Of a stretch of 64,000 bases of DNA, positions 22-50,700 are shown piece after piece. The stretch's first letter is position 1; each line of letters starts with the position of its first letter. The notes beneath the pieces are model-generated. The model was given only the letters and a program-made list of their open reading frames with translations, ran no database searches and was not told where the DNA came from. The translations under genes and the position numbers were made by a program. The stretch is taken from IMG/VR virus record IMGVR_UViG_3300043427_001796; one strand, written 5' to 3'. The stretch is from a virus.

Positions 22-94
22 GGGGAATTAACTCAGTTGGTAGAGTATCTGCTTTGCAAGCAGGCTGTCAGCGGTTCAAGTCCGCTATTCTCCA
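22..94 (+). tRNA. tRNA-Ala(TGC)
   Basis: Acceptor stem GGGGAAT/ATTCTCC with G3:U70, D arm, anticodon arm TCTGC-TT-TGC-AA-GCAGG, T loop GGTTCAAGTCC. Confidence 0.96.
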
Positions 95-142
95 TGGGTA
101 GTTTGCGCCGGAAAGATAAACCGGAATGCCGCTACCCTTTAA

Positions 143-214
143 TCCTCTGTAGCTCAGCGGTAGAGCGAGCGGCTGTTAACCGCTTGGTCGCAAGTTCGAT
201 CCTTGCCGGGGGAG
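143..214 (+). tRNA. tRNA-Asn(GTT)
   Basis: Acceptor TCCTCTG/CGGGGGA, anticodon arm AGCGG-CT-GTT-AA-CCGCT, T loop GTTCGATCC. Confidence 0.96.
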
Positions 215-449: not shown

Positions 450-3400
450 ATGTCTCTTACAAGACTTGATAATCTGTATTCCAGCAAAACTGGAAAGTAT
501 CTGTATGTCTCTCCCGACGACTTTAACGCTACGGATACATTAGATAACAGAGGAAACTCACCACTCCGTCCATTCAAGACCATTCAAAGAGCATTCTTAG
601 AAGTATCTCGCTTCTCATATCAGCCTGGTGCTAATAATGATCGTTTTGATCAATTCAGCATCATGCTTATGCCTGGTGATCACTATATTGATAATAGACC
701 AGGACTAGTTAATTACAGTATCAATGGTAGTAATCAAAATAAAAATAGATATTACGATGCTGGTAATTTAATTGAATTAAACAGAGAATTTATTGCAAAT
801 GAAGCATATGCAAAGATGCTCAATGCAAATCCTGGATTTCTACCATCTACTGGAACCGTAGAAAATTTTATTAATAATGTTGCTGAAGTAATTGACTCGA
901 TCATTTACAATATTAAATTTGGCGGCAACGATAAAACTTTTGATGCATCTTTAGTATATCAAGATAACGCCACTTTATTTCAAAATGAACAGGCAGAATT
1001 ATTAGAAATTTATGAAAATGCAGCTGAAATTGCTACCTCAATAATTAAGCAAGAAATTATTATAACGTTATATCAAACTACATACACACAATCTTTCGAC
1101 CCATCAATTTCTGTGGGACCATCTGAATCCGGAGCAACGACACCGGATATTCCTTATGGTCAATTAGAAACATGTGCTGATGTTACAAGTGATTTAAATA
1201 CATTATTTGATATTATTGCTTCTGGTATTAATCAAATTTTAGATTTAGGTGATCGCACAGAACCAGAAACTTTTGGTGAACTTCCTATCTTTAATTTTAA
1301 CCAGGCAACTGGACAGTGGGAAGATAATTCCATCATAGATTTAAGAAGTCCAGACAATATCTATTGGAAGTTCAATGCTTCTACTGGTGGTGCAATTGTT
1401 CCTAGAGGTTGCTCACTGGTTGGATATGATCTTCGTAGAACTATTGTAAGACCACTCTATGTTCCTGATCCATCTGATGGAACACAAGAAAGAACATCAA
1501 TATTTAATTTAACTGGTGGTTGTTATATTTGGCAGTTTACAATTAAAGACGGAGACCTCTCTTCAAATTCTCCATTGTATGATTCTGCCGATAAAGTTGG
1601 TAAAGTATATTACCAAAAAGGAAATGTTACTAATTTAGCTGTTCCTGAATATTCACACCACAAAATCTGCATTATGGAATATGCAGAAAATTTTGAATTA
1701 GATGCTTATTATAAAAAAGTTGCCGTTGCGTTTTCAAAATATCAACCAACTATTGATGATCCTGGTGAATTTGATGTATTGGTTCAGGAAAATAGAATTG
1801 TTGGACCTCTTTCGGATACAACTTTTATCGAAAGTATTAAACCAGTAGATACCAACTTAGGTGAACCCAATCAAAAATTAGTATTAAATGTAACAACTAA
1901 AGTTAATCATGGTTATTTTAAGGATCAGTATGTTGCAGTATTAAATCTTGGTTTAGACGAAGAGTTAAACGGCACATTTAAAGTAGCAAGCATTGATGCT
2001 AATAATCCCAAAGTATTCACTTACGAAATTCCTGGAAAGGTAGCAGCTGGATTAGGACTTACAAATAATGCTGTATATACATCAGGTTCCTCACTCAATT
2101 CAAATGCTGTAGTTCAAGCTGAAATTGACTCTGTTGAATCTGCATCTCCATATGTATTCAACTGTTCGATTCGTTCGATCTGGGGTCTATGCGGTATGTG
2201 GGCAAATGGATCCAAGTCAACTGGATTTAGATCCATGGTTGTCGCTCAATATACTGGTGTATCCCTGCAGAAAGACGATAGAGCATTCATTCGCTACGAT
2301 GAATTTACTAACACTTGGAATCAAGCATCGTTAACAGATGCCTTTGCTTCTGTTCCTTATCATGCAAAGGGCGATTCTTACTGGAAGGATGAATGGAGAA
2401 ACTTCCACATTCGTGCTTCAGATGATGCATTCGTTCAGTGTGTGTCTGTGTTTGCTGTGGGATTCTTTGACCACTTCTTGATGGAATCTGGTGGCGACAT
2501 GTCCATCACCAACTCCAACTCAAACTTCGGTAACACTTCACTTCACTCTGTAGGTCATAAAGGATACTCATTTAACCAGGATAAGGGTGGATATATTACT
2601 CATATTATCCCACCTCAGCAAATTGTTGGTGGATATCGCCCTACTATTTTTGGTGATTCTATTAATTCAACTGAAATTCCATACTATCCAATTGATGTTC
2701 CAACTTCAAACGATCCTGGTAATTTTACTCGTCTTTACTTAGGAACCAACGAAGCATATGATCCATCTAAAAAACCAGCCTCAACATTAAGTGGATACCG
2801 ACTTGGTGCTAGACCGGGAGAAAAATTATATGTTGAATTGGAACCAATTACTCCAGGTGGAAATAATTTATTTGAAGCAACTTTAACTCCAACAGGAATT
2901 GAAACGTATAATGTTTCTGTAAATTTCTTAAATCCTACTGGAATTACCATTAATCAGAGAGCACAGGATGCTTCTAATTTAATTGGATATAATAAACAAT
3001 TCATTCAAGATGAAGTGTATGGATATATTACCGCAAAATATCCCGATCTTTTGAATAATTCAAATATTGACATCCTTACATGTAAAAGAGATATTGGTTA
3101 TTATGTAGATGCTGTAGTTAAAGATTTGAGACTTGGGGGAAATGTTAATAGCGTTCAGACAGCAGAAGGATATTTTTCTGCAAATGAATTAATTTACATT
3201 GAAAATGAGTTAAGTGAAACAATTGATGCTCTTGGCGTAACAAAAGATTTTTGCCTCGCAGCAATGCGTAACTGGAATTACCTACTGACTGGATGCAAAA
3301 CTGAAACAAGCAGTAGTATTATTGAAGTCCCATCAACAAAGGGATTAGTTGTTGGTATGAAGGTTACTTCATACTCTTCTTACGATTCATTAACTCAGAC

Positions 3401-6400
3401 GGAACCAACTGGATCTCCAACTGCAACAATTCCACCCGGTTCTTATATTAGATCTATTATTGATGATACAAATATTGAAATTGGCGTAAAAGGATCTTAT
3501 AATTTTGGCGTGGATCCAGGTCAATATTTTAATCCATCCTCACAAACTAAGGTAGCAACACAGGAGTTAACTGGTGCAATTCTTTATTTTACATTAAGAG
3601 ACGAAACTGAATTTACATCATATCCAAATGGACCTGTTGCCGTAAGAGATGGTATTTTCTCAACTGAAAGAACTATCTATGATGATACTATCCCTAAAGA
3701 TACAGTTAATGTATTAAATAATGAAACTGAATACGACGACATTGAAACAATTATTGATGGATATTTTGTAGACATTACAAGTATTTTATCTTCAGATCCA
3801 GAAAATGCTGGTGTCGATAAAATTGAACCAACTACAGACTTCTCGGTTCTTTCTAGGAGAGCAACACTCTTCACTATAGTTGGTGGACAAGCTCACCAAA
3901 TGGAAACAGGAACAGCTGTTCGTCTTTCTCCAAAACCTGCTCCAGGAACTAATCCAGATCCTAGAGTTATTCGCCTACCAAAAGGATTTAATACTAATAC
4001 AACATATTATGTAATTGCTCCAGGAAGAAAAACTTCTCCGGAAGATTTCTCAAGCACCACAATTTTCGATGGATCTGATCAACAGGTCTTCTTACTTGCA
4101 ACAACTTTAGAAAATGCAAAAGCAGGTAATTATATTTACTCTCCAGAAACTGATTCAATAAATCCTGATGTAGTAATTGAAGTAAACAAATATATTTTAG
4201 ATGCACAATATGATTTATATCAATATATAACTTCTGTATCTACAGATGCAGGAACTGGTGTATTAAAAACTTCAGTCTCACACTCATTTGATATTCCTTC
4301 TGACTCTATTGATCCAATTGATCACCAAAAAGTATTCTTTAGACCAATTAATGGATCAAATTTACCTGTAAGAACTATTTCTGTTGCTGGTGTAACTACT
4401 CAAGTAACTTTAGATCCCCAAGATGAATTTTGGGTTAGATATTATAGTCCAAATGAATTTACAATTTATACATCATACGATGATTCCAAAAATGATGTAA
4501 ATCGTGTTGTTTTAAATGGAAATCTTACATTTTTAACATATTCAAATAAGAGATTTTCTCCACTGAGATTTGAACCAAAACCAACTAGTAATCAATCTGT
4601 CAGAAATTCAACTGGACAGTGGTATTTACGTTGTGTGGACGAAATTAGTGATGAAGATAATGAAAATACAAATCATATTTTGTATAGATTTAATTCTGGC
4701 AATGTATATTCCGGACCAAATCCTGGAGAGGTCAGGACATCCGATACATTCTTTGAAAGAGTTAATGATGATAGAATTAAAGAAGATAGAATTTACAAAC
4801 TTAGATATGTAATTCCAAAATATCTAGAGACAGTTAGAGATCCATTAAATGGATTTGTATTAAAAATCAGAACAGACAACAAACGAAGATTATTACCACA
4901 AAAAATTGTACTCAAACCAATTATTTCCGATAGTCACTTAGAGGAAGCTGGGTATTCTTCTTCGTCAATTGCCAAATTTTTAAATAATTCTGGCATAAAT
5001 CCAGATTTTGATAATACAGATGAGCAAATTGGTTGGGATAGAAAAACATATGGGAGTATTATAGAACCTAAATATGATCCATATAGTAATCCAAAAGTTG
5101 TAGAGACTAAAAACGGAAAAATTGCTTTTACTATTCAATCAGCAAAAATTATTTCCCAAGATAATGGAAGCGGAACAAACTTTAGTTACTTAGAAGTTGT
5201 TGCTTTTGACCACACTATTTTAAATCAAGCAATTAAGAATGAAAAATTTACAATAGTTAAAATTGAACCCCCACAGGGTTCAGTTGGAATTTTCTCCGCA
5301 AATGCCACTTCAAATACCAATGGAAATTTAATTCAATGGTCTGGGCATAGTTCTGGCACTGGTTATTTACACGGATATTTTACAACATCTGATAAACCAT
5401 TTACATCAAGTTCTGTAACTAATCAAGATCATTATTTAATAATTAAAAATATTACTGATGGTGAAATCAATTTCAGTAAAATAAATCAAACGACGTTTTT
5501 CCAGGGAGGTTCTACACCTCTTGGATCTACAGTGTTTGCAAAACTTCTAGCAAAACCAGATAGCGTGGGTGATGCAAATGGAAATAGTAAGTCATTAAAG
5601 AGTGATTATCTTTACTCCCTTAAAGGATCAAATGTATTCACTCTAGTGCCCGGCGACATTGTTTCCGATGACACTGGAGCAGAATTTTATATTGATAGTG
5701 TAGAAGATGTTGGAGAAATTGAAGATACATTCTACATTTTTGATATTGAAGAAATTAAGGAAAGAATTCCCGGACAACAAGATGGTATTTACTATCTAAC
5801 TTGTCTGAAAGGAAATGTTTCTCCGTTCCCAACAGGTCCAGGTGTTGGAAATAATTTCAGAAACTTTAAATTCTCGCAACCAGTAGCATACATTTATCCA
5901 CAAAATTACAAAGATGATCCTTTATGGTATGAAAAATTAGATTCTGATTATTATGGTGATGAAATTAATGATCCTCCAGCATCATACTCTGCTGCCGATA
6001 ATTATGTTCATGGATTAGTTACTGTTAACAACTCAAAATTCAGTTCCACGAAGGAAGCAGTAACATTTTTAGTTAATAGTCCAGCACTTAATGAATATGA
6101 ATATGATGAATATGTTGATGTTGCTCCAGAATATTCTGTTGACGCTAGATTGAGGGCACAAGTTGGAAATGCTGAATCTGGATCTGAAGATAGACTCATT
6201 CCAATTAGAGGAACCTCGCTGTTTCCAACAGAAGAAAGACTCTATGTAGAACTTCGTAGACCATCTATTGCTCGTTCTGGAAACCACACCTTTGAGTATC
6301 TTGGATTTGGTCCTGGTAACTACTCAACTGGTTTCCCACTACGTCAGGAAGTTATTCTTACTGATAAGCAAGACTTCTATGCTCAGGCAAAGAGAGAGGA

Positions 6401-9400
6401 TGGTGGTATCGTATTCTACACTGGATTAAACTCCAATGGAGACCTTTACATCGGTAACAAGAAGATTAATGGTATTACTGGTGAAGAATCATTCTTAGAA
6501 TCTGCAGAATTAGTTGGATTTGGCGAAGAAGATGATGATCTTGGATCTGCTTTGGTAACTACGTTTACTTCACCAGTTACATTTAGAGAAAAAATTACTG
6601 TTAAAGGAACTGCGGATTTTTCACAACCAGTTACAATAAGAGTTCAACCAAATGATGCCAAAGAACCAGTTGCTGCTCTGTCAATTCTAAGTCTAGTTGA
6701 TCCAAGTGTTCTTGGTGAAGATCCAACATTAGATAGAACTGCATTTCCGGATGAAAAATTAGGGGATATTCGTTTATCGAAAAATAGAATTAATTCTGCA
6801 ATATTTGCAATTAATCCTAGAGGAAATGGTGCATCGGGAGCTTCTGGTCAAGATTATTCAATCAGGACTCACTATAATTTCCAGGAAAGTGGGGGATCTC
6901 CATCAAATACAACTCCAGAGCAATCTCCGGAAATTTATTCACCTACAAATTTAAATTCAAATAAACTATTTTCAGATCAAGATGTTTATTATGGAAATAC
7001 TGGAAATCAACCTATCCCCGGTGATATACTATTTAAAGGTAAAGAAGTAGGTAAATCCGGATCTTTAGGTTGGATTTATGCCAATACTTTTGAAATTATT
7101 CCAAATTCATTGATTCAAACTGTAGCAACTCCAAAAATTAATGATGCAACATTAAATTTAGAAGTTGGAACTGGTGGCGGAGAAGGATACACTGCAACTA
7201 ATCTGATTCGTTTAATCTGGTCTGTATCTGGTGGAGTTGGTGGATCTCCCATCACAAATAGAGAATTAAATCTATCATATGGTCTTACTTTAGATTCTAT
7301 TATTCGCACCATTAATGTTGATGGTCAAGAATTGGAACAAAGATTTAATGGAAGATTTACAATTCACGAAGATACTTGGGATATTGATGGCGAATTTATT
7401 GATATTGAAGTCAATGGATTAGTTACATTTGATTTAGTAGAAAATTGGAATGCGGTTGGAATTGGACAGGGTGCTCAAGTATCTGTTACCAATTCAAACT
7501 GGAAAGAACTGGGAGTTATTGGTTCTGAATCAATTAGAACCTTTACTTCAACACTTGGAGATTATAGAGTAGGCATTAACACAGTTGCTAGATCACCTCA
7601 TAGTGCCTACAGTAACTCTTATGTTGACTCGGCAACAACTGATCCTAGAGCAAATCTTGACGTTGTTGGTAATGTTTTTATTACTGGTAAGGCAGTTCCT
7701 GATTATAGAAGTCAGTCTAATCCTTCTAATAGAGTTGCACAATCATTAAATAATGCATTTGTCCTTGGTTACAATTTCCTCAATTCTACTGATACTTTAA
7801 TTTCGCAAAATGCTGCTACATTCAGAATAGCAACTACAGATGCAACAACACCTGGCACTACTTATCAAAGTGGCGGCAGAGTTGGAATCAACACTCAATT
7901 GAGCGACCTTGATAGAAATTTTGTAGTCAAAGGAAATGCTAGAATTACTGGAGACTTCTTATTTGAAAATGATATTGACATTAATGGAGGAGGTGGAACT
8001 AACACTGCTGATGTAAGAACTAGTATTACTACTGGAACTTTCAATTTCATCTCAAATAGTGGATTTGTTGGAACAGCAAATCTTACAACTTGGGCAGAAG
8101 TAGTTAATTTTGCCAGCAGAGCTTCTACAATCGCAATTGGTAATGTTGAATCCACAACTCAGGTTATCAATATTGGTAATCTTGCTGCCACACAAACAAT
8201 TGATATTGGAAATACCTCGGATACATTCACTATTACGCTAGGAAACGCTAGCACAACTTCTGCAGTATCTAGAGTTAATATTGGTGGAGCATACAGCAGA
8301 AATCAATCATTGAGCTTTACCACAATAAAGACAAAGCAAACCAATATTTGGGGAGATCTGTCAATTGGATTAAACAAAGCATTTAGTGATACATTAGATG
8401 TTACTGGATCTGCTGGCACTGTTAATTTCTTTAGTAATTCTGGAGCAACCTCAACATTAAATTTTGCAACAAACGCAGCACTTGTTACTATGGGTGCTCA
8501 GGGTGGAACAACAACTATCCGCAATAGTTTGACGGTTGATGCAACTCTAAGTGTAAAAGGAAATTCTATAGTTGTTGGTGGAACAGCAGCATTTTCATTT
8601 AATGCAACACGATCTAGATTGGGATCAACTCAGACAACACATACAGGAACACCATCCGGCATTCCTGCTGATAAAAATGTTGATTTTGTTATAATTACAA
8701 CTACTACAAATGTGTTGGATACTGCTGGTGCAGGAACTTGGGGAGGAACTTTCTTCCAGCAAGCAATTCCTACCTATACAGCAGATGATGGGACAGCACT
8801 TGCTGCTTTAACTGGAAATCAATACTATTTACCAATTGTTAATGCACCAGTTGGTATTTCGGAAGGAAATGATCTTTTAATTGATACTGCAGTTTCTGGT
8901 TCTAGTCACCCTGAAATTGTTAGAGTTTCTATAGGAGGATTGAGAAGAGTTAATGCTTCTCCATATTATCTTATTGTTGAGAGACAACCATACGGAACAT
9001 TCTTACCTACAAGAACTGATCACCCAGACGCAACTACAATTAGAAAAGTAATTACGTCATTTGATAGCACTTGGTTAACTTCTAACGTTGACGGAACTGG
9101 AACAACCGATGTAGTCTCTCTTGCTGAATTTGGTGGAGAACTATCACAAGGAAGTTACTTATTCCTGTCTAGAAATACTTCTGGAACTACAGGAGAAGCT
9201 ATATTAGTTGGAGCATCCACATCAGCAATTAATAAAAAGTTTCAGGTTTATAACGGTGCAAACGTCTTAAAATTTGAAATTGATACAATTACTGGTGCTA
9301 CCTTAATTAGTGATAATATTACTAATGGAGGATTGACGGTTTATGGACCAATTGATTTTAATGGATCTTTAAATGTTGACGGAAATGCAACATTTAATAC

Positions 9401-10229
9401 GCCAAATAATTTAACTATAAATGGCGGAAACTTCATCATTAACGATTCTGCAGGAACTTCCAATAAATTAACGCTTACTAATTCTACTGGAAATCTGTTT
9501 ATTTCTGGCGACCTGACAGTTGCTGGAAATGACATTAGTTCAAGCACAAATGTTGCTTTAACTTTATCTGGCGCAAATGTTACTGTTGCTGGAGATCTAC
9601 AGATCAATGGAAATGATATTAAATCCAGCACTGGTGCTACAGTTCTTAGTCTTAGTGCTAATGATGCAACATTTGCTGATAATGTAACAATTGGGGGAGA
9701 CCTAACATTAGATGGTGGCGACTTTACTATTAATTCTGGTGGTATCGAAAAATTTGCTATTAACTCTACTGGATCTATTGATTTTGCCGGAATCACTAAT
9801 TACATTACAAATACTGGAGGATTTAAGTGGGTATTCATTAGCACTGATTCAAATAGTGAAGCATCAATTGGACCAAGTGAACTTTTAAAATCAAATACAA
9901 ATTATTTCGTTAGACCTTCTGGATCCAATGCTGCCTTGATATTAAAACTACCAACAACAGCACAAACTGGAGATATGATTAGAATCGTTGACGTTGGAGG
10001 AAGTTTAAAATATAATACACAATTGGTTCTCAGAGCACCATCTGGTGTTGCAATACAGGGAGATACAACAGGAACAAATATTGGTCTTACTTCAGGAATA
10101 TATAGTGGTGGGGAATTAATTATTAATACGCCAAATGCTGCATTTGGACTTATCTACGCAGGTGCTACTGATGGAGATGGTAATTCAATTCCATCTTCAA
10201 ACAGAGGGTGGCATTTAATGGAGATTTGA
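450..10229 (+). CDS. giant virion structural / tail-fibre-like protein (3259 aa) with two phycobiliprotein-like helical domains and C-terminal beta-helix repeats
   Basis: Long ORF under a late promoter; N-terminal YLYVSPDD...GNSPLRPFKTIQRA typical of cyanomyovirus structural proteins; G/T/S-rich C-terminus with GDLTVAGND-type repeats. Confidence 0.85.
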   Translation: MSLTRLDNLYSSKTGKYLYVSPDDFNATDTLDNRGNSPLRPFKTIQRAFLEVSRFSYQPGANNDRFDQFSIMLMPGDHYIDNRPGLVNYSINGSNQNKNRYYDAGNLIELNREFIANEAYAKMLNANPGFLPSTGTVENFINNVAEVIDSIIYNIKFGGNDKTFDASLVYQDNATLFQNEQAELLEIYENAAEIATSIIKQEIIITLYQTTYTQSFDPSISVGPSESGATTPDIPYGQLETCADVTSDLNTLFDIIASGINQILDLGDRTEPETFGELPIFNFNQATGQWEDNSIIDLRSPDNIYWKFNASTGGAIVPRGCSLVGYDLRRTIVRPLYVPDPSDGTQERTSIFNLTGGCYIWQFTIKDGDLSSNSPLYDSADKVGKVYYQKGNVTNLAVPEYSHHKICIMEYAENFELDAYYKKVAVAFSKYQPTIDDPGEFDVLVQENRIVGPLSDTTFIESIKPVDTNLGEPNQKLVLNVTTKVNHGYFKDQYVAVLNLGLDEELNGTFKVASIDANNPKVFTYEIPGKVAAGLGLTNNAVYTSGSSLNSNAVVQAEIDSVESASPYVFNCSIRSIWGLCGMWANGSKSTGFRSMVVAQYTGVSLQKDDRAFIRYDEFTNTWNQASLTDAFASVPYHAKGDSYWKDEWRNFHIRASDDAFVQCVSVFAVGFFDHFLMESGGDMSITNSNSNFGNTSLHSVGHKGYSFNQDKGGYITHIIPPQQIVGGYRPTIFGDSINSTEIPYYPIDVPTSNDPGNFTRLYLGTNEAYDPSKKPASTLSGYRLGARPGEKLYVELEPITPGGNNLFEATLTPTGIETYNVSVNFLNPTGITINQRAQDASNLIGYNKQFIQDEVYGYITAKYPDLLNNSNIDILTCKRDIGYYVDAVVKDLRLGGNVNSVQTAEGYFSANELIYIENELSETIDALGVTKDFCLAAMRNWNYLLTGCKTETSSSIIEVPSTKGLVVGMKVTSYSSYDSLTQTEPTGSPTATIPPGSYIRSIIDDTNIEIGVKGSYNFGVDPGQYFNPSSQTKVATQELTGAILYFTLRDETEFTSYPNGPVAVRDGIFSTERTIYDDTIPKDTVNVLNNETEYDDIETIIDGYFVDITSILSSDPENAGVDKIEPTTDFSVLSRRATLFTIVGGQAHQMETGTAVRLSPKPAPGTNPDPRVIRLPKGFNTNTTYYVIAPGRKTSPEDFSSTTIFDGSDQQVFLLATTLENAKAGNYIYSPETDSINPDVVIEVNKYILDAQYDLYQYITSVSTDAGTGVLKTSVSHSFDIPSDSIDPIDHQKVFFRPINGSNLPVRTISVAGVTTQVTLDPQDEFWVRYYSPNEFTIYTSYDDSKNDVNRVVLNGNLTFLTYSNKRFSPLRFEPKPTSNQSVRNSTGQWYLRCVDEISDEDNENTNHILYRFNSGNVYSGPNPGEVRTSDTFFERVNDDRIKEDRIYKLRYVIPKYLETVRDPLNGFVLKIRTDNKRRLLPQKIVLKPIISDSHLEEAGYSSSSIAKFLNNSGINPDFDNTDEQIGWDRKTYGSIIEPKYDPYSNPKVVETKNGKIAFTIQSAKIISQDNGSGTNFSYLEVVAFDHTILNQAIKNEKFTIVKIEPPQGSVGIFSANATSNTNGNLIQWSGHSSGTGYLHGYFTTSDKPFTSSSVTNQDHYLIIKNITDGEINFSKINQTTFFQGGSTPLGSTVFAKLLAKPDSVGDANGNSKSLKSDYLYSLKGSNVFTLVPGDIVSDDTGAEFYIDSVEDVGEIEDTFYIFDIEEIKERIPGQQDGIYYLTCLKGNVSPFPTGPGVGNNFRNFKFSQPVAYIYPQNYKDDPLWYEKLDSDYYGDEINDPPASYSAADNYVHGLVTVNNSKFSSTKEAVTFLVNSPALNEYEYDEYVDVAPEYSVDARLRAQVGNAESGSEDRLIPIRGTSLFPTEERLYVELRRPSIARSGNHTFEYLGFGPGNYSTGFPLRQEVILTDKQDFYAQAKREDGGIVFYTGLNSNGDLYIGNKKINGITGEESFLESAELVGFGEEDDDLGSALVTTFTSPVTFREKITVKGTADFSQPVTIRVQPNDAKEPVAALSILSLVDPSVLGEDPTLDRTAFPDEKLGDIRLSKNRINSAIFAINPRGNGASGASGQDYSIRTHYNFQESGGSPSNTTPEQSPEIYSPTNLNSNKLFSDQDVYYGNTGNQPIPGDILFKGKEVGKSGSLGWIYANTFEIIPNSLIQTVATPKINDATLNLEVGTGGGEGYTATNLIRLIWSVSGGVGGSPITNRELNLSYGLTLDSIIRTINVDGQELEQRFNGRFTIHEDTWDIDGEFIDIEVNGLVTFDLVENWNAVGIGQGAQVSVTNSNWKELGVIGSESIRTFTSTLGDYRVGINTVARSPHSAYSNSYVDSATTDPRANLDVVGNVFITGKAVPDYRSQSNPSNRVAQSLNNAFVLGYNFLNSTDTLISQNAATFRIATTDATTPGTTYQSGGRVGINTQLSDLDRNFVVKGNARITGDFLFENDIDINGGGGTNTADVRTSITTGTFNFISNSGFVGTANLTTWAEVVNFASRASTIAIGNVESTTQVINIGNLAATQTIDIGNTSDTFTITLGNASTTSAVSRVNIGGAYSRNQSLSFTTIKTKQTNIWGDLSIGLNKAFSDTLDVTGSAGTVNFFSNSGATSTLNFATNAALVTMGAQGGTTTIRNSLTVDATLSVKGNSIVVGGTAAFSFNATRSRLGSTQTTHTGTPSGIPADKNVDFVIITTTTNVLDTAGAGTWGGTFFQQAIPTYTADDGTALAALTGNQYYLPIVNAPVGISEGNDLLIDTAVSGSSHPEIVRVSIGGLRRVNASPYYLIVERQPYGTFLPTRTDHPDATTIRKVITSFDSTWLTSNVDGTGTTDVVSLAEFGGELSQGSYLFLSRNTSGTTGEAILVGASTSAINKKFQVYNGANVLKFEIDTITGATLISDNITNGGLTVYGPIDFNGSLNVDGNATFNTPNNLTINGGNFIINDSAGTSNKLTLTNSTGNLFISGDLTVAGNDISSSTNVALTLSGANVTVAGDLQINGNDIKSSTGATVLSLSANDATFADNVTIGGDLTLDGGDFTINSGGIEKFAINSTGSIDFAGITNYITNTGGFKWVFISTDSNSEASIGPSELLKSNTNYFVRPSGSNAALILKLPTTAQTGDMIRIVDVGGSLKYNTQLVLRAPSGVAIQGDTTGTNIGLTSGIYSGGELIINTPNAAFGLIYAGATDGDGNSIPSSNRGWHLMEI

Positions 10230-19259: not shown

Positions 19260-19526
19260 ATGGAAAAGACTTATCAATCTGTTCGCAAAGATCGTCTTGT
19301 TGATGTCATTGGTGATTATCTCACTGATGAAGAATGTTCAGCAGAACAATTCTATAACGAATTAGTTGGTGAAATTGATACCTGGATTGAATATCATCGT
19401 AAATTCCTTGAGAAGGCTAAACTTGTCAAGAAAATGGTAAATGGTCATCGCCCACTGACTTTTGAAGATGACACCATCACCAACTATAGTCCACAATATC
19501 TTGCTGAAGATATTCTCGCGCTGTGA
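19260..19526 (+). CDS. hypothetical protein
   Basis: ORF; likely start at ATG 19260. Confidence 0.7.
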   Translation: MEKTYQSVRKDRLVDVIGDYLTDEECSAEQFYNELVGEIDTWIEYHRKFLEKAKLVKKMVNGHRPLTFEDDTITNYSPQYLAEDILAL

Positions 19527-20143
19527 AAAACCTCTGGAAAAACTATAAGCAAGCAATTCACGATACCTTCCCAGAACTCAAACAAGTAGAACTCTGGAAT
19601 CACTGGGAAGGTAAGATGACGATGGATGCTTATGTCTATCGTGGTGGTCATTTCATGCGAACTAGAGAAGCACTGGTCCGCAATGATACTACAGACATTT
19701 ACAATCATGTGCTGTATCCCTACACTGGCAAGAATACACCATGCTTCAGTGTAGACTTGATGGGATTCTTTGAGAACAAAGTGATCATCGTATTTGATTT
19801 CCAGCATCCTGTAGAGAACTATAAGTTCAGTGTTGGTGATAGACTACCCAAAGACACTGGTAAATATAGATTTTTTGAGATGGGAAATCATTTTAGTGAG
19901 CATATCTTTGTTCGCAAATGTACAATGTCAGAGGTTGATAACTATCTGGATGATTTTGTATCTTATTTGTCAGTATACAAGGAAATAGTTTATAACGATG
20001 CTCCTTTTAGTATAGATACATCAGCATACAAAGATTTTGACTCATATATGCGTAAACTTGACCCCATTTCTGGGTATATGAATAACATTTACGACAAAGA
20101 TAAGTCTAAATCATTTGTTGAAGAGTTCCTATTCATTTACTAG
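19523..20143 (+). CDS. pebS: phycoerythrobilin synthase (ferredoxin-dependent bilin reductase)
   Basis: DIYN.VLYP.TG...PCF..DLM....KVIIVFDFQHP, GKYRFFEMGNHFS, DFDSYM..LDP, FLF; closely matches phage PebS as recalled. Confidence 0.93.
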   Translation: MKNLWKNYKQAIHDTFPELKQVELWNHWEGKMTMDAYVYRGGHFMRTREALVRNDTTDIYNHVLYPYTGKNTPCFSVDLMGFFENKVIIVFDFQHPVENYKFSVGDRLPKDTGKYRFFEMGNHFSEHIFVRKCTMSEVDNYLDDFVSYLSVYKEIVYNDAPFSIDTSAYKDFDSYMRKLDPISGYMNNIYDKDKSKSFVEEFLFIY

Positions 20144-20689: not shown

Positions 20690-21124
20690 ATGACCAGCGC
20701 CACCTTCGATCAATTTGTTGCTCAGCAAGACGCTAAGAATACCATTCAATTGAATGTTACTAAGTGGACTTGGGAACTATGTGAGGCACTGCGTCAGAAC
20801 TTTATTGATTACTCTATTCGGTCTCACGCACTTCGCACATCTGATGTGGAGTATCATGATGCCTGTATTGCTGAATTGAGGCAAGGTAAGTGTAACTATG
20901 ACTTCACTTTTGAGTCGGGTCGTAAGTATCACAAGATCATCATGACTGCGGATGGTTCCCGTTCTGTTCACGCATTTGTGGACAAGAAGACTGGTGAAGT
21001 CTATAAATCTGCCTCCTGGCAGTCTCCTGCTAAGGGTGTTCGTTACGATCTCCGCGTCATTAGTGAGCGTGAATGGTTGTTTGAGAATGCTGACTGGGCA
21101 GGTTCTTATCTGTATGCCCGTTGA
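20690..21124 (+). CDS. conserved hypothetical phage protein
   Basis: SD GAGGA; GRKYHKI...VHAFVDKKTGEVYK.ASW..PAKGVRY. Confidence 0.85.
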   Translation: MTSATFDQFVAQQDAKNTIQLNVTKWTWELCEALRQNFIDYSIRSHALRTSDVEYHDACIAELRQGKCNYDFTFESGRKYHKIIMTADGSRSVHAFVDKKTGEVYKSASWQSPAKGVRYDLRVISEREWLFENADWAGSYLYAR

Positions 21125-25560: not shown

Positions 25561-25995
25561 ATGATTCAACTCAATCAAGTTTATAACTTTGAGTGCCCAG
25601 CAGCATTTGGAACTCTCTCGCAAGAGCGTGTGAATAAACTATTCACTGATGGTCGTCGTGCATCTGGTTTTCTTGAATTGCAACTTGAAGAATGGTTTCC
25701 TGAATTGATGTTTGTTGATGGCAAGGGATACGATCATGTAGATCCCAATGGTGTCAAGTATGATGCCAAATGTTTCACTAAAGGTGGTGCCAAATTCTGT
25801 GCATCCAAATATCTTGGTGTTGGTCGGTCTGTTGATATTGATGAGCATCGTGAACATTCTATGAAGATGATCTACATCTTCTGTGATGTGGTAGAATTCC
25901 CTAAGGTTCGCGTTGTATTCAAACGTGGATCTGATCTGACTCAATATACTAAGGGTTCTATTCCATTTGGTGATCGTAATGCTCTATTTGCTTGA
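25561..25995 (+). CDS. putative PD-(D/E)xK endonuclease
   Basis: E...GYD...YDAK catalytic-like pattern; overlaps the methyltransferase gene. Confidence 0.55.
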   Translation: MIQLNQVYNFECPAAFGTLSQERVNKLFTDGRRASGFLELQLEEWFPELMFVDGKGYDHVDPNGVKYDAKCFTKGGAKFCASKYLGVGRSVDIDEHREHSMKMIYIFCDVVEFPKVRVVFKRGSDLTQYTKGSIPFGDRNALFA

Positions 25996-26758
25996 TTGTT
26001 TGACTGGTATGAAGCAATTGGAGAACGAGAGTGTTGATGCTATCATCACCTCTCCTCCATATAATCTTAATATCAAATATGGTAAATATTCTGATGACAA
26101 ACCACGCCAAGAGTATATTGATTGGTTGGTAGAGATATTTCGTGAAGGTAAGCGTGTGCTCAAGGATAATGGGCATTTGTTTGTGAACATGGGATATTCT
26201 AATGTTGATCCATGGGTGGGCATGGAGGTCGGTCTTGCACTCAGAAATGATTGGATTTTGCAAAATCACATTAACTGGGTGAAATCTATTCATGTAAATG
26301 ACAAGACAAGCGGACATTTCAAACCAATTAATAGTAAAAGATTTCTATGTCCTACATGGGAGCATCTCTTTCACTTCACAAAAGATGGTAATGTAAATGT
26401 AGATCGTCTTGCAGTTGGTGTTAAGTATGAATACTACGAAGCAAACATTCGTGGTAAGAATACTATTGACACCAAACCAAATTTGAGAGACAAGGGCAAT
26501 TGCTGGTTTATACCATACGAAACTATTAATAGTAAAGAACTCAGAGGCAAGCATCCAGCTACATTTCCAGTTAAATTGGTTGCGGATTGTATTAAACTGA
26601 CTGGTATTGAGAATGGTATAGTTCTTGATCCATTCATGGGCACAGGGACTACAGCAGTTGCCGCAATTAATCTTGATTGGGATTATATTGGTTACGATAT
26701 TGATGCAGACTATATTGATTATGCCAGGCAGCGGATCGAGGCGTGTGCCACCTCATGA
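25979..26758 (+). CDS. DNA methyltransferase, N4-C/N6-A beta class
   Basis: TSPPYN motif IV, HPATFP, DPFMGTGTT motif I. Confidence 0.93.
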   Translation: MLYLLDCLTGMKQLENESVDAIITSPPYNLNIKYGKYSDDKPRQEYIDWLVEIFREGKRVLKDNGHLFVNMGYSNVDPWVGMEVGLALRNDWILQNHINWVKSIHVNDKTSGHFKPINSKRFLCPTWEHLFHFTKDGNVNVDRLAVGVKYEYYEANIRGKNTIDTKPNLRDKGNCWFIPYETINSKELRGKHPATFPVKLVADCIKLTGIENGIVLDPFMGTGTTAVAAINLDWDYIGYDIDADYIDYARQRIEACATS

Positions 26759-47700: not shown

Positions 47701-50700
47701 TCAACTATAACATTTGCATCGGCTCCTCTAGGAGAAAGAATTTCTGAAGGTCAGTCTTTACAATCCGATCCATTTATCGGAAGAGTTTTTGGATACAGAA
47801 CCGAAGAAGATAATCAAAAATATTTTAAAAAGATAAAAAATATTTTCCAAAGAAGTGGAATATGGTTGGATGCTGCCAATCAAATACATTTCAATAGAAA
47901 TTTTATTGTTGAGGAAACATTTGGATATTTAAATAATAAGTATCCAAATCTTGAATTTAATACAGAAAAGTGCAAAAGAGACATTGGATATATTATAGAT
48001 TCGTTTGAACACGATTTAAGATTTGGCGGAAATTTAAAAACTGTCACATCTGGAAATTTTTACTTTAATGCTGCAGAAGAACTTCAATTTATTAATGATG
48101 AATTAGAAGAAACAAAAGATGCTTATAAGTATGCAGCAAAATTATGTGCCGCAGCTATCAGAAATTGGGATGTGGCATTTATTGATGATCCAAATACATT
48201 AGATCCTGAATTTGAAGTTATAGTTTCCGCCAATAGTGATGTTATTACTGTTCCATCTACTTTTGGAATTGTTGAGGGAATGTATGTTAGTTCTGGATCT
48301 CAATTTCCATCTGGAACTAAAGTGATAGAAATTATGAATGATACTAATGTCAGAGTTAGTTCAAATTCCTTTGCTAACATAACAGACGAAGAAGTATTTG
48401 TATTTGACATTCCCATTGGTCAAGTGGTATTGCCACCTGTAGGAAGCACTGAGGTTGAGTTCAATTATAATGGCGTTATTATACAAACAGACGCAGAACT
48501 GATAGTTTCTGATGGCATAACGGTTTCGATTACAGCACAAATTGCTAAATTGAGGCAAGTTAGATTTTCATTGAGTAGAATTAATACTGGAAAATATGTA
48601 GACGCATCGAATTTAATTTATGTCAACCGTGAATACATAATTGACGAAACCATTTCATATATTAATTTAACTTATCCGGGATTTTCATATCCAAGTGAGA
48701 AAAAATGCAGGAGAGATATTGGGCATTTAATTGACGCAGTAATTTATCATCTTAGATATGGTGGCAATAATAGACTAGTTGATTATGCAGAAAAATACTA
48801 TTTTGCAAATAAATTAAATTACATTAATGAAGAACTAACTCAAACTGTAGTTGCCTTTGAGTATTCTATTGCCTTAATGTTGGATGCTATAGAGAATCCA
48901 GGATCTCCTTTCCAGACAGTAAATTATGTTGTGGCATCAGACGATGTAAATCCACTAGATTTATGCATCGAAGTTAAGTCAACTATTAATGCGTATAGAG
49001 ATCTTTATACCTTTATTTTAGAAAATGGACCTAATTTAATTGAAAGAAATTTTGGAGAGGTTCAGAAGTCTGGAAATTATACAGAATTGTTAACTTTTTC
49101 AAATTATAATTTAATCGATGACGAAGAGTTACAATTATCGACTCAAATTAATGGTGTTTGGTTTGCTTCAGAATGTGCAAATGTTATTTCCAGTCTTTAC
49201 AATTTACAGCAATCTTTAGATCAAATTTTAACTTCTGGAGTTGATTCTGTAGATATCTCTGGTCCAGATTATTTTAACGGTGAAACAAAGCAGTTTGAAT
49301 TATATACAGATTCAAATGCTATACTAAAAACAGATCCAGACGAAAATTTATTAATTTTCATAAATGGAGTTTTACAAAGAACGACATCTTATAAAATTTT
49401 AAGATCGGAAAATCCACAACAAACTGATATTATTGAATTTACTGAGGCACCAAGATGGGATCAAAATGAAGCACAATTATTATTGAACCAGGGGACTGCA
49501 GTTGATTATTTTTATGGGTTCTCAATTGGAAATTATCAAAGAAGAACCATAGATAAAACTTATTTTAAATATGAATCTAGTTATAGAATTGTTTCCGAAA
49601 ATGGATATTCTATTGATCCAATATTTGATTCTAGATTCCATTTAGTTTTCGTTGATGGAGTTTTGCAAAGAAACAAAATTGATTATAATATCGATCAAAC
49701 TAGAATAATATTTAAAGAGAAATTAAATTACTATACTCCAGCAACTGGAGAAAACTTACTTTCAAATGTTGACATCATTTCTTTCTCTGGTGAAAAAAAT
49801 AAAGATACTTTTATAGGATTTGATTTTCAACCAGGATCTTATTCATTAACAGCAACATTTGATGTTTATGATGACGATAATTCACAAGATAACATTTACG
49901 AAATTATTACCCAGTGGAATGCTCCTTCTAGGTCTTATCCTATAGACATTATTGACGAATATGGTCCTGTTGGACGAGTATTGAATTATGTTCAAGTAAA
50001 TTCTCCTTACTCAGGCGTAAGATTTACAATCATTACCGATGTAATTAGAGAAGTTATACAAGAATCAATAACATTACGTAAAGATTTGCCTTATGTAAAC
50101 GACATTACGCTATCAATTGCTGCTCCTTTAATAATAAGTGGAAATTTTGTAGTTCCTGGACCTGGAGAATATATTGTTGGCGCAATAAATGTAACATCAG
50201 GGTCTACCGTGACTGTTCCTGAAGATACAACTCTTATCTCTATATCTAATATCACAGATGTAAATTATGAGACAAACAATGATGGAGAAAAAATTCTTAG
50301 AAGAGCAAACGCTGTTCATATTCATGATGATAGAAGAATCGCAAATAAAAACTGGAGAATTCTTAACAAATTAACAGCTAATATATTGGAAGGTGATAAG
50401 ATAAAAGTTGATGGTGAAGAAGAATACAGAGATGTATTAAAATTACCTGACATAGTAAAAACTACTCAAAATAATTTATATACGCCAGTATCCAAAAAAA
50501 CATATGGTAATATTATAACTTCTGTATCAGATAAGAAGCCTAAAGGTAGTGGTCTTAGAATTAACCCCATATTGGATTCGCAAGGAAGAATTGTTTCTTT
50601 AGATTATGGAAAAGATGACTACATAAGATCAAAATTATTAAATCTTCCATCCAGAAAAATTGGACTATATCCAAAAGAAATTTATGTAGACTTTTTATCT

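What the first reader, a model, noticed from the sequence alone, without database searches (positions are those of the whole stretch)
756..1230. First domain copy keeps only the beta-155-like Cys, the site class served by T-type lyases
Seen: DAGNLIELNREFIANEAY...NP...IDSIIYNIKFGGN has lost CxRD, but ends TCADVTSDLNTLFDIIASGI (Cys242). This aligns gap-free with beta-PC CSALASEIASYFDRAAAAV (C, S, D/E, L/I, F, D, A). The second copy in this protein has the reverse pattern (CxRD present, terminal Cys absent), which argues against an obligatory intradomain disulfide. Established: CpcT/CpeT-type lyases attach bilin at beta-155-type Cys, and many cyanomyoviruses carry a cpeT whose natural substrate is unclear. 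Inference: these virion domains may be that substrate. No cpeT is present in this window.
Basis: partly seen in the sequence, partly recalled or inferred. Interest (0 to 1): 0.8.

Follow-up and report, generated by a model that had tools for sequence, protein, structure and literature searches.

The report
Phycobiliprotein-like domain in cyanophage fibre
A giant tail-fibre protein of a marine cyanobacterial virus holds a domain truly related to its host's light-harvesting pigment proteins. Its only cysteine sits at one of the known pigment-attachment positions, so the virus particle may carry a pigment, but nobody has tested this.

Summary
Residues 97-275 of the 3259-aa fibre protein (nt 738-1274) form a six-helix domain. 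Its model (pLDDT 88.6) matches phycoerythrin beta best (Z 16.5). The family profile matches phycobiliproteins (HHalign 96.3%, E 1.7e-9; CpcA E 1e-5).

This copy has F140/N142/N143 where 94-98% of about 1600 family copies have Cys-x-Arg-Asp. Its only cysteine, Cys242, aligns with the beta-155 cysteine in HMM and HHalign. Asp103 and Asn99 fall on beta-Asp39 and beta-Asn35, which hold the beta-155 bilin.

- For: among 50,697 phage genomes the domain occurs only in cyanophages. CpeT is present in 15 of 15 cyanomyoviruses checked. In seven genomes cpeT lies 0.6-2 kb upstream of this fibre gene.
- Against: the siphovirus S-SKS1 keeps the same domain and cysteine without cpeT. The Cys-Asp coupling (53/53) is not significant on a tree. 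Most copies have Ser or Thr at this helix-cap position.
- Bilin attachment is untested.

The scan had already found sister domains in this genome's gp7-like protein. No paper searched describes the domain. Verdict: real homology, plausible beta-155-type site (about 0.3), function open.

The parts
450..10229 (+). Giant tail-fibre-like virion protein (3259 aa, P0001) that carries the domain
   Evidence: Single ORF. PHROG tail fibre families, E 0 to 1e-29. Orthologues are annotated tail protein or short tail fibre in Sf-FR1, S-RSM4 and S-MbCM7.
738..1274 (+). Domain copy 1 (residues 97-275): phycobiliprotein-beta-like globin domain inserted in the N-terminal beta-helix region
   Evidence: A2 HMM hit, 1.2e-28. 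AF2 pLDDT 88.6, six helices. Foldseek and VIA top hits are all phycobiliproteins. HHalign 96.3%.
744..758 (+). Asn99, Arg100 and Asp103, at the positions of beta-Asn35, beta-Lys/Arg36 and beta-Asp39
   Evidence: HMM columns 3, 4 and 7 map to CpcB N35, K36 and D39. PMC6614406 gives the role of Asn35 and Asp39 at the beta-153/155 bilin.
867..878 (+). F140-I141-N142-N143, in place of the Cys-x-Arg-Asp bilin motif
   Evidence: Alignment columns 41-44. The family has Cys 96%, Arg 94%, Asp 98%.
1173..1175 (+). Cys242 codon, the only Cys of the domain, at the N-cap of the last helix
   Evidence: HMM column 126 aligns to CpeB Cys165, the beta-155 site. Model helix 147-164 starts right after model residue 146.
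1176..1229 (+). Last helix (helix H equivalent), ADVTSDLNTLFDIIASGI
2949..3419 (+). Domain copy 2 of the same protein, with CKRD (Cys878, nt 3081-3083) and an inserted beta-rich segment before its last helix
47851..48282 (+). Domain copy 3, in the 3662-aa gp7-like protein (P0002), with CKRD
48583..49059 (+). Domain copy 4 (P0002), with both CRRD and the terminal Cys
19523..20143 (+). Ferredoxin-dependent bilin reductase gene (PebS/PcyA type), a phage-encoded bilin supply
   Evidence: Pfam PF05996, E 4.6e-15, 56.3 bits against a cut-off of 31.
22..214 (+). tRNA-Ala and tRNA-Asn, the end of the tRNA array that separates cpeT from the fibre gene in relatives
   Evidence: ARAGORN. Same order cpeT, tRNAs, small ORF, giant gene in Sf-FR1 and S-RSM4.

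Best explanation
Shown:
- Residues 97-275 are a phycobiliprotein-like globin domain, with helices equivalent to A, B, E, F, G and H. It lacks the N-terminal X-Y hairpin of true phycobiliproteins.
- The domain is built into a cyanomyovirus tail-fibre protein.
- It belongs to a large phage family of about 150-165-aa units, with up to about 36 tandem copies per protein.
- Across about 1600 copies the family keeps the Cys84-Arg86-Asp87 bilin motif at 94-98%.
- This copy has lost that motif. It keeps Cys242 at the position homologous to beta-Cys155, with Asp103 and Asn99 at the positions of the beta-39 and beta-35 residues that hold the beta-155 bilin.

Inferred, and the most likely single mechanism: during particle assembly in the infected cell, a bilin is attached by thioether to Cys242. 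The bilin would be phycoerythrobilin from host or phage PebS. Attachment would be helped by a T-type lyase (phage or host CpeT) or be autocatalytic. The fibre would then carry a peripheral, solvent-exposed chromophore.

What the pigment would do (light sensing for adsorption, or something else) is speculation.
For: Homology:
- The A2 profile against PDB sequences gives CpcA at E 1e-5 and dozens of phycobiliproteins below 1e-3.
- 45 of 148 copies hit Pfam PF00502. The next family has 2 hits.
- HHalign probability 96.3%, E 1.7e-9, over 127 columns.

Fold:
- pLDDT 88.6.
- All Foldseek top 50 are phycobiliprotein beta chains.
- VIA gives Z 16.5, rmsd 2.5 A over 147 residues to C-phycoerythrin beta. 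The top 8 are all phycobiliproteins or ApcE.

Site:
- Column 126 aligns to CpeB Cys165, column 7 to Asp39 and column 3 to Asn35.
- The roles of these residues are described in PMC6614406.
- The Cys is kept in 9 of 10 related cultured phages and in S-SKS1.
- All 53 copies with this Cys have Asp at column 7, against 72 of 682 others.

Context:
- The domain is found only in Synechococcus and Prochlorococcus phages among 50,697 phage genomes and among named BFVD hits.
- A bilin reductase gene lies in the window.
- CpeT is present in 15 of 15 cyanomyoviruses checked.
- cpeT lies 0.6-2 kb upstream on the same strand as the fibre gene in seven genomes.
- CxRD globins outside phycobilisomes bind bilins without lyases (PMC10151467).
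Against: - There is no direct evidence of any chromophore. No report of pigmented cyanophage particles was found.
- Column 126 is the helix N-cap. It is Thr, Ser or Gly in most copies, so Cys may be a conservative variant.
- On a tree the Cys state changes only about 7 times and gives 3 supported independent pairs. The Asp coupling is therefore not significant.
- In phycocyanin, ring D of the beta-155 bilin is held by alpha-subunit residues (PMC6614406). This domain has no alpha partner and no X-Y hairpin.
- The G-H loop here is 43 residues long with low confidence.
- S-SKS1 keeps the Cys without cpeT. Sf-FR1 has Tyr at this position.
- This copy alone gives no Pfam hit.
- cpeT synteny and co-occurrence are seen within one virus family and may reflect one ancestral arrangement.
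Confidence: 0.3

Rival explanations
1. The domain is a purely structural module. It would be an old capture or relative of a phycobiliprotein or globin, used as a rigid helical bead in fibres. Cys242 would be a Ser/Thr-like helix N-cap residue. Where a second Cys exists, it may form inter-domain or inter-chain disulfides after release into oxic seawater. No ligand is bound at this site.
For: - Column 126 is Thr 303, Ser 143 and Gly 103 of 682 non-Cys copies, which are typical N-cap residues.
- Copies with this Cys form a few clades.
- In those clades nearly every tandem copy has both cysteines, as staples between neighbouring beads would need.
- Tandem arrays of 20-36 units in fibre-like proteins point to an architectural role.
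- S-SKS1 has the Cys without cpeT.
Against: - In this window's copy Cys242 has no partner in the domain. The next Cys is at residue 321.
- Either Cys is lost singly in relatives.
- An intradomain bond is excluded by the 34 A separation of the two sites in phycocyanin (PMC8421246).
- The 94-98% conservation of Cys, Arg and Asp, the exact chromophore triad, in otherwise 19%-identical copies is hard to explain by structure alone.
Confidence: 0.3
2. Copy 1 is a decaying, ligand-free member of a family whose other copies bind bilin at the CxRD site. Cys242 would be a leftover of the ancestral two-cysteine form with no present function.
For: - Orthologues of this copy carry C-x-D-D plus the terminal Cys. 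This copy has F-I-N-N, with Asn for the 98%-conserved Asp55.
- Only 2 of about 1600 copies have the pattern of no first Cys but the terminal Cys.
- Sf-FR1 shows the opposite single loss.
Against: - The rest of the domain is well kept (HMM 1.2e-28, confident fold).
- Asp103, Asn99 and Arg100 at the beta-155-type site are intact.
- The Cys is kept in a protein with only 0.37% Cys.
Confidence: 0.2
3. The conserved polar cluster of the family (Cys41, Arg43, Asp44, Asp55, Tyr71) binds something other than a bilin, such as a metal, heme or host surface sugar. The phycobiliprotein likeness would be only ancestry. Cys242 would then belong to a second, unknown binding or cross-link site.
For: - Asp55 and Tyr71 (98%) have no counterpart in phycobiliproteins.
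- Globin-coupled heme sensors are the next structural neighbours, at Z 9-11.4.
- Many-copy members occur on contigs whose capsid protein is 70% identical to those of Rak2-like jumbo phages of Proteobacteria, and in freshwater bins without CpeT.
Against: - No conserved His for heme.
- Sequence matches go to phycobiliproteins, not heme globins.
- No cultured non-cyanophage carries the domain.
Confidence: 0.1

Closest known systems
Phycobiliprotein beta subunits (C-phycoerythrin beta, PDB 5aqd_M; CpeB/CpcB; Pfam PF00502)
   Same: - Same globin-like core. Z 16.5, rmsd 2.5 A over 147 residues, with model 1-165 matching chain 31-184.
- Profile homology.
- Cys242, Asp103 and Asn99 align with beta-Cys155, Asp39 and Asn35.
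- In the family, CxRD aligns with Cys82/84, Arg and Asp.
   Different: - No X-Y hairpin, so no alpha-beta monomer, trimer or rod assembly is expected.
- About 15-19% identity.
- Embedded in a 3259-aa virion fibre.
- This copy lacks the Cys84-type site.
- Long disordered G-H loop.
- Family-specific invariant Asp55 and Tyr71.
- Chromophore not shown.
ApcE (core-membrane linker) phycobiliprotein-like domain
   Same: A phycobiliprotein-like domain forming part of a large multidomain polypeptide. It is the third-best structural match, Z 14.5. From my own knowledge, it attaches its bilin autocatalytically.
   Different: ApcE is a host phycobilisome core protein with one such domain and linker repeats. 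Here the domain sits in phage fibres, often in long tandem arrays.
BBAGs, bilin biosynthesis-associated globins (Rockwell et al. 2023, PMC10151467)
   Same: Phycobiliprotein paralogues outside phycobilisomes. Some carry CxRD and bind bilins without lyases.
   Different: BBAGs are small soluble bacterial proteins clustered with HO and pre-PcyA genes. No phage or virion members are described there. The relationship to this family was not tested by phylogeny here.
Sister copies in this genome's gp7-like baseplate protein (earlier scan finding e1-5669745)
   Same: Same domain family. Copy 4 carries both CRRD and the terminal Cys.
   Different: Copy 1 is the only one in the window that has lost the CxRD cysteine while keeping the terminal one.

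Membership tests
Phycobiliprotein superfamily (PF00502-like bilin-binding globins) | Globin-like fold matching phycobiliproteins better than other globins | tested here: met
   The VIA top 8 are all phycobiliproteins or ApcE (Z 12.9-16.5), against at most 11.4 for heme globin sensors. The Foldseek top 50 are all phycobiliprotein beta chains. Model pLDDT 88.6.
Phycobiliprotein superfamily (PF00502-like bilin-binding globins) | Significant sequence or profile similarity to phycobiliproteins | tested here: met
   At family level: HHalign 96.3%, E 1.7e-9; CpcA E 1e-5; 45 of 148 copies hit PF00502. Copy 1 alone gives no PF00502 hit.
Phycobiliprotein superfamily (PF00502-like bilin-binding globins) | Cys84-x-Arg86-Asp87 chromophore motif | tested here: not met
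   Copy 1 reads F140-I-N142-N143. The family as a whole meets it: Cys 96%, Arg 94%, Asp 98%.
Phycobiliprotein superfamily (PF00502-like bilin-binding globins) | N-terminal X-Y helix hairpin that builds the alpha-beta monomer | tested here: not met
   All alignments start at phycobiliprotein residue 31-36. The domain is flanked by beta-helix sequence.
Phycobiliprotein superfamily (PF00502-like bilin-binding globins) | Covalently bound bilin | not testable with these tools
   Needs spectroscopy or mass spectrometry of the protein.
Beta-155-type (T-type lyase) chromophore site | Cys at the position homologous to beta-Cys153/155, at the start of the last helix | tested here: met
   HMM column 126 aligns to CpeB Cys165. 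HHalign pairs d1 Cys with CpeB Cys165. The model helix starts at the next residue.
Beta-155-type (T-type lyase) chromophore site | Asp at beta-39 (binds the pyrrole nitrogens) and Asn at beta-35 (binds a propionate) | tested here: met
   Asp103 is column 7, which aligns to D39. Asn99 is column 3, which aligns to N35. Roles are from PMC6614406. The family-wide coupling of Asp with the Cys is 53/53 but not significant on a tree.
Beta-155-type (T-type lyase) chromophore site | G-H loop residue (Thr149) and alpha-subunit residues that shape the pocket | tested here: inconclusive
   The loop is 43 residues long with pLDDT 54-76. No alpha partner exists.
Beta-155-type (T-type lyase) chromophore site | A T-type lyase (CpeT/CpcT) available in the same system | tested here: inconclusive
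   - None in the window.
- No whole genome is held.
- An earlier unchecked note says the genome has cpeT.
- Present in 15 of 15 related cyanomyoviruses.
- Absent in S-SKS1, which keeps the Cys.
- Hosts have their own lyases (established knowledge).
Beta-155-type (T-type lyase) chromophore site | Bilin transfer to this Cys by the lyase | not testable with these tools
   Needs an in vitro or E. coli co-expression assay.

The most novel reading that the evidence does not exclude
Cyanophage particles are pigmented. Phycoerythrobilin made by host or phage PebS would be attached to virion fibre and baseplate domains, at Cys84-type sites in most copies and at the beta-155-type Cys242 here, with help from the phage's own CpeT. 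That would explain why cyanophages carry cpeT beside this fibre gene. The chromophores would make tail fibres respond to light, giving the long-sought mechanism of light-dependent adsorption.
Probability: 0.2. Interest if true: 0.95.

Novelty: new variant of a known kind. Interest (0 to 1): 0.75.

Why it matters
Two puzzles in cyanophage biology are old and open.
- It is unclear what phage CpeT and the phage bilin genes are for. From memory, the reported P-HM1 CpeT-PEB complex did not directly hand its bilin to host phycoerythrin; I could not check this paper here.
- It is unclear why some cyanomyoviruses, including P-HM1/2 and S-PM2, adsorb only in the light, independently of host photosynthesis. 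'Light-sensitive tail fibres' is an untested suggestion in PMC6628666.

A family of true phycobiliprotein relatives in fibre and baseplate proteins bears on both puzzles. It is restricted to cyanophages among cultured phages. It keeps the chromophore triad, and in this copy a beta-155-type site next to cpeT. Both puzzles become directly testable with simple assays.

Even if no pigment is bound, the family is a striking case of a host-type light-harvesting fold reused as a tandem building block of virus fibres. It adds a large phage branch to the bilin-binding globin superfamily.

Tried and rejected
- Pfam on the whole protein and on copy 1 alone gave nothing useful.
- A single-sequence AF2 run of residues 1-420 was useless, pLDDT 32.
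- No whole genome is held, so cpeT, ho1 and petF could not be sought in the rest of the genome. An exact search of viral contigs for the window found nothing.
A degenerate DNA pattern was used instead.
  - It gave 25 hits. Two were chance matches (L025, L027).
  - The other 23 were all in aquatic MAG bins, so their bin names are not host evidence.
- A psbA search of five bins found only pufLM-like genes of one host.
- Intradomain disulfide was rejected on geometry (PMC8421246) and on the single-loss pattern.
- The Asp7-Cys126 covariation is striking in raw counts, but I do not claim it as independent evidence after the tree test.
- Co-occurrence of cpeT with Cys-retaining copies does not discriminate within Kyanoviridae, where it is 15/15. 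One counter-example lies outside that family.
- P0004 was too long for a context look-up.
- The hosts of the many-copy giants stayed unknown.
- Gasper et al. 2017 on phage CpeT is not in the library.
Full report
**What is there.** The window comes from a T4-like cyanomyovirus. Its nearest cultured relatives are S-PM2 and Sf-FR1, and only short stretches reach 80-84% DNA identity. Positions 450-10229 (+) encode one 3259-aa protein that PHROGs places in tail-fibre families.
- DAGNLIELN starts at residue 103 (nt 756).
- FGGN is at residues 157-160.
- Cys242 is nt 1173-1175.
- The last helix ends at nt 1229.

Cys242 is the only Cys between residues 90 and 280. The whole protein has 12 Cys. Four copies of the domain lie in the window: nt 738-1271 and 2949-3419 in this protein, and 47851-48282 and 48583-49059 in the 3662-aa gp7-like protein.

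**It is a true phycobiliprotein relative.**
- A profile of the four copies, searched against all PDB sequences, returned phycobiliproteins in 29 of its 30 best hits, with weak E-values.
- That profile found 1322 representative proteins in 1.84 billion. Many are giants with up to about 36 tandem copies of a 150-165-aa unit and tail-fibre-like N-termini.
- A 148-copy alignment with copy 1 first (A2) gave CpcA at E 1e-5 and dozens of phycobiliproteins below 1e-3. The phage CxRD sits exactly on Cys84-Arg86-Asp87.
- 45 of 148 single copies hit Pfam PF00502. The next family has 2 hits.
- HHalign against eight real alpha and beta subunits gave 96.3% probability, E 1.7e-9, over 127 columns.
- AlphaFold2 with this alignment gave a confident six-helix model, pLDDT 88.6, pTM 0.86.
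- The Foldseek top 50 PDB hits are all phycobiliprotein beta chains.
- VIA-align over 48,161 representative chains put C-phycoerythrin beta first (Z 16.5, rmsd 2.5 A, 147 residues, model 1-165 on chain 31-184). Seven more phycobiliprotein or ApcE chains followed at Z 12.9-15.3. Heme globin sensors came only at Z 11.4 or below.
- The X-Y hairpin that builds the alpha-beta monomer is absent.

**The family motif.** Over about 1600 copies the conserved positions are Cys 96%, Arg 94% and Asp 98% of CxRD. A family-specific Asp (98%) and Tyr (98%) have no phycobiliprotein counterpart. PMC10151467 states that CxRD is the chromophore motif of phycobiliproteins and of some BBAG globins, which bind bilins without lyases.

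**Copy 1 and Cys242.**
- Copy 1 reads F140-I-N142-N143 at CxRD.
- Against real CpeB, the family HMM puts column 126 on CpeB Cys165, the beta-155 site. The consensus at that column is Thr, so the Cys does not drive the alignment. The column holds d1 Cys242.
- The following F-D of d1 falls on the phycobiliprotein F-D. HHalign gives the same pairing.
- In the model the last helix starts right after this Cys.
- Column 7 (Asp103) falls on beta-Asp39, column 3 (Asn99) on beta-Asn35, and column 4 (Arg100) on beta-Lys36.
- PMC6614406 reports that the beta-153/155 bilin is held by Asp39 (pyrrole nitrogens) and by Asn35 and Thr149 (propionates). Ring D is framed by alpha-subunit residues.

**How general is the Cys.**
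- Column 126 is Cys in 118 of about 1000 aligned copies. Otherwise it is Thr, Ser or Gly, which are typical helix N-caps.
- All 53 Cys copies with an aligned N-terminus have Asp at column 7, against 72 of 682 others.
- On a tree built without these columns the Cys state changes only about 7 times and gives 3 supported independent pairs. The coupling is therefore compatible with shared ancestry, and I do not count it as independent evidence.
- Orthologues of copy 1 carry a variant C-x-D-D motif, Asn for the family Asp, and the terminal Cys. These are S-MbCM7, S-RSM4, S-WAM2, S-RIM44, Syn9, metagenomic P0145 and P0150, and the siphovirus S-SKS1.
- This window's copy has lost the first Cys. Sf-FR1 has lost the second, which is Tyr there.
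- Only 2 of about 1600 copies show the window's pattern.
- The beta-84 and beta-155 chromophores are 34 A apart in one beta subunit (PMC8421246). Inter-domain or inter-chain bonds remain possible.

**Distribution.**
- tblastn with copy 1, copy 4 and a copy from a metagenomic giant hit 292, 392 and 236 of 50,697 phage genomes. All hits are Synechococcus, Prochlorococcus or cyanophage records, plus one 'Marine virus'.
- Named BFVD fold matches are all Synechococcus phages or uncultured Caudovirales.
- A degenerate DNA pattern over 185,579 species genomes gave 23 true hits. All are in aquatic MAG bins and none in an isolate genome, so they look like misbinned phage contigs.
- One 21-copy giant lies on a contig whose gp23 is 70% identical to those of Rak2-like jumbo phages of Proteobacteria. 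Its host is unknown.
- Freshwater-type bins have CxRD copies but no column-126 Cys, and no CpeT in the bin.

**Bilin genes.**
- The window encodes a ferredoxin-dependent bilin reductase at 19523-20143.
- The window has no cpeT, and no whole genome is held.
- CpeT (PF06206) is present in all 15 Kyanoviridae checked.
- In Sf-FR1, S-MbCM7, S-RIM44, S-RSM4, S-WAM2, S-H9-1 and a 194-kb contig, cpeT lies 0.6-2 kb upstream of the orthologous fibre gene on the same strand. Typically only a tRNA array and a small ORF separate them.
- The window starts inside that array, so cpeT is expected just upstream.
- In Syn9, cpeT lies between a tail protein gene and gp5.
- This linkage is suggestive, but it is one arrangement within one virus family.
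- S-SKS1 is outside that family. It has a d1-type domain with both cysteines and no CpeT, so phage cpeT is not needed to keep the Cys. The host has its own lyases.

**Reading.**
- Shown: homology, fold, positional identity of Cys242, Asp103 and Asn99 with the beta-155 site, restriction to cyanophages among cultured phages, and cpeT linkage.
- Inferred: bilin attachment. I put it at about 0.3 for Cys242.
- The family's CxRD sites are somewhat more likely to bind bilin.
- The structural N-cap or disulfide reading is about equally likely. A vestigial site is at about 0.2.
- No paper in the library describes phycobiliprotein-like domains in phage.
- PMC6628666 records that light-dependent adsorption of P-HM1/2 and S-PM2 may reside in tail fibres and does not need host photosynthesis.
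- The scan had already found and followed up sister copies in this genome's gp7-like protein.

Noticed in passing
window 19523-20143 (+): A ferredoxin-dependent bilin reductase gene (PF05996, E 4.6e-15), PebS/PcyA type, lies 9 kb downstream of the fibre gene. DUF7717 (20690-21124) and a DNA methylase (25967-26758) lie nearby.
   Followed up: partly
Phage records PV340855.1, NC_023587.1, KX349295.1, FM207411.1, NC_031935.1, MW117966.1; G008:C1: cpeT lies 0.6-2 kb upstream of the orthologous giant fibre gene on the same strand. A tRNA array and a small ORF sit between them in Sf-FR1 and S-RSM4. The long (about 180 aa) CpeT form goes with phages that have this fibre gene. A short (about 150 aa) form occurs in Syn9, Syn19, S-RIM2, ACG-2014a/d, P-HM1 and P-TIM40.
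   Followed up: partly
P0003-P0015, P0154 (L006 10001-21814): These are giant proteins of 3600-6400 aa with 20-36 tandem phycobiliprotein-like units. Each unit keeps CxRD, and the N-termini look like tail fibres. One lies next to T4-type portal and gp23 genes whose capsid protein is 70% identical to those of Rak2-like jumbo phages.
   Followed up: partly
P0058, P0094: A shorter tandem-repeat variant (about 125-135 aa) seems to lack the first two helices. It keeps both the CxRD Cys and the terminal Cys in nearly every copy.
   Followed up: no
Family alignment columns 55 and 71 (d1 Asn154, Tyr170): An Asp and a Tyr are 98% conserved in the phage family. They have no counterpart in phycobiliproteins and are unexplained. 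In the d1-type subfamily the Asp is Asn and CxRD is C-x-D-D.
   Followed up: no
NC_020851.1 15531-18317 (L078): The tail fibre of siphovirus S-SKS1 (Llyrvirus, not Kyanoviridae) has the same architecture: a beta-helix start with an inserted d1-type domain carrying CADD plus the terminal Cys. The module is therefore shared across unrelated Synechococcus phages.
   Followed up: partly
L018-L042: MAG bins labelled Verrucomicrobiales, Flavobacteriales TMED113, Euryarchaeota TMED129, Planctomycetaceae, Rhodobacteraceae and others contain contigs with these fibre genes. These are very likely misbinned phage contigs.
   Followed up: partly
window 2949-3700: Copy 2 has a beta-rich segment of about 130 residues inserted between its fifth helix and a weakly detected last helix near residues 1086-1122. 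This is a nested-domain arrangement.
   Followed up: partly
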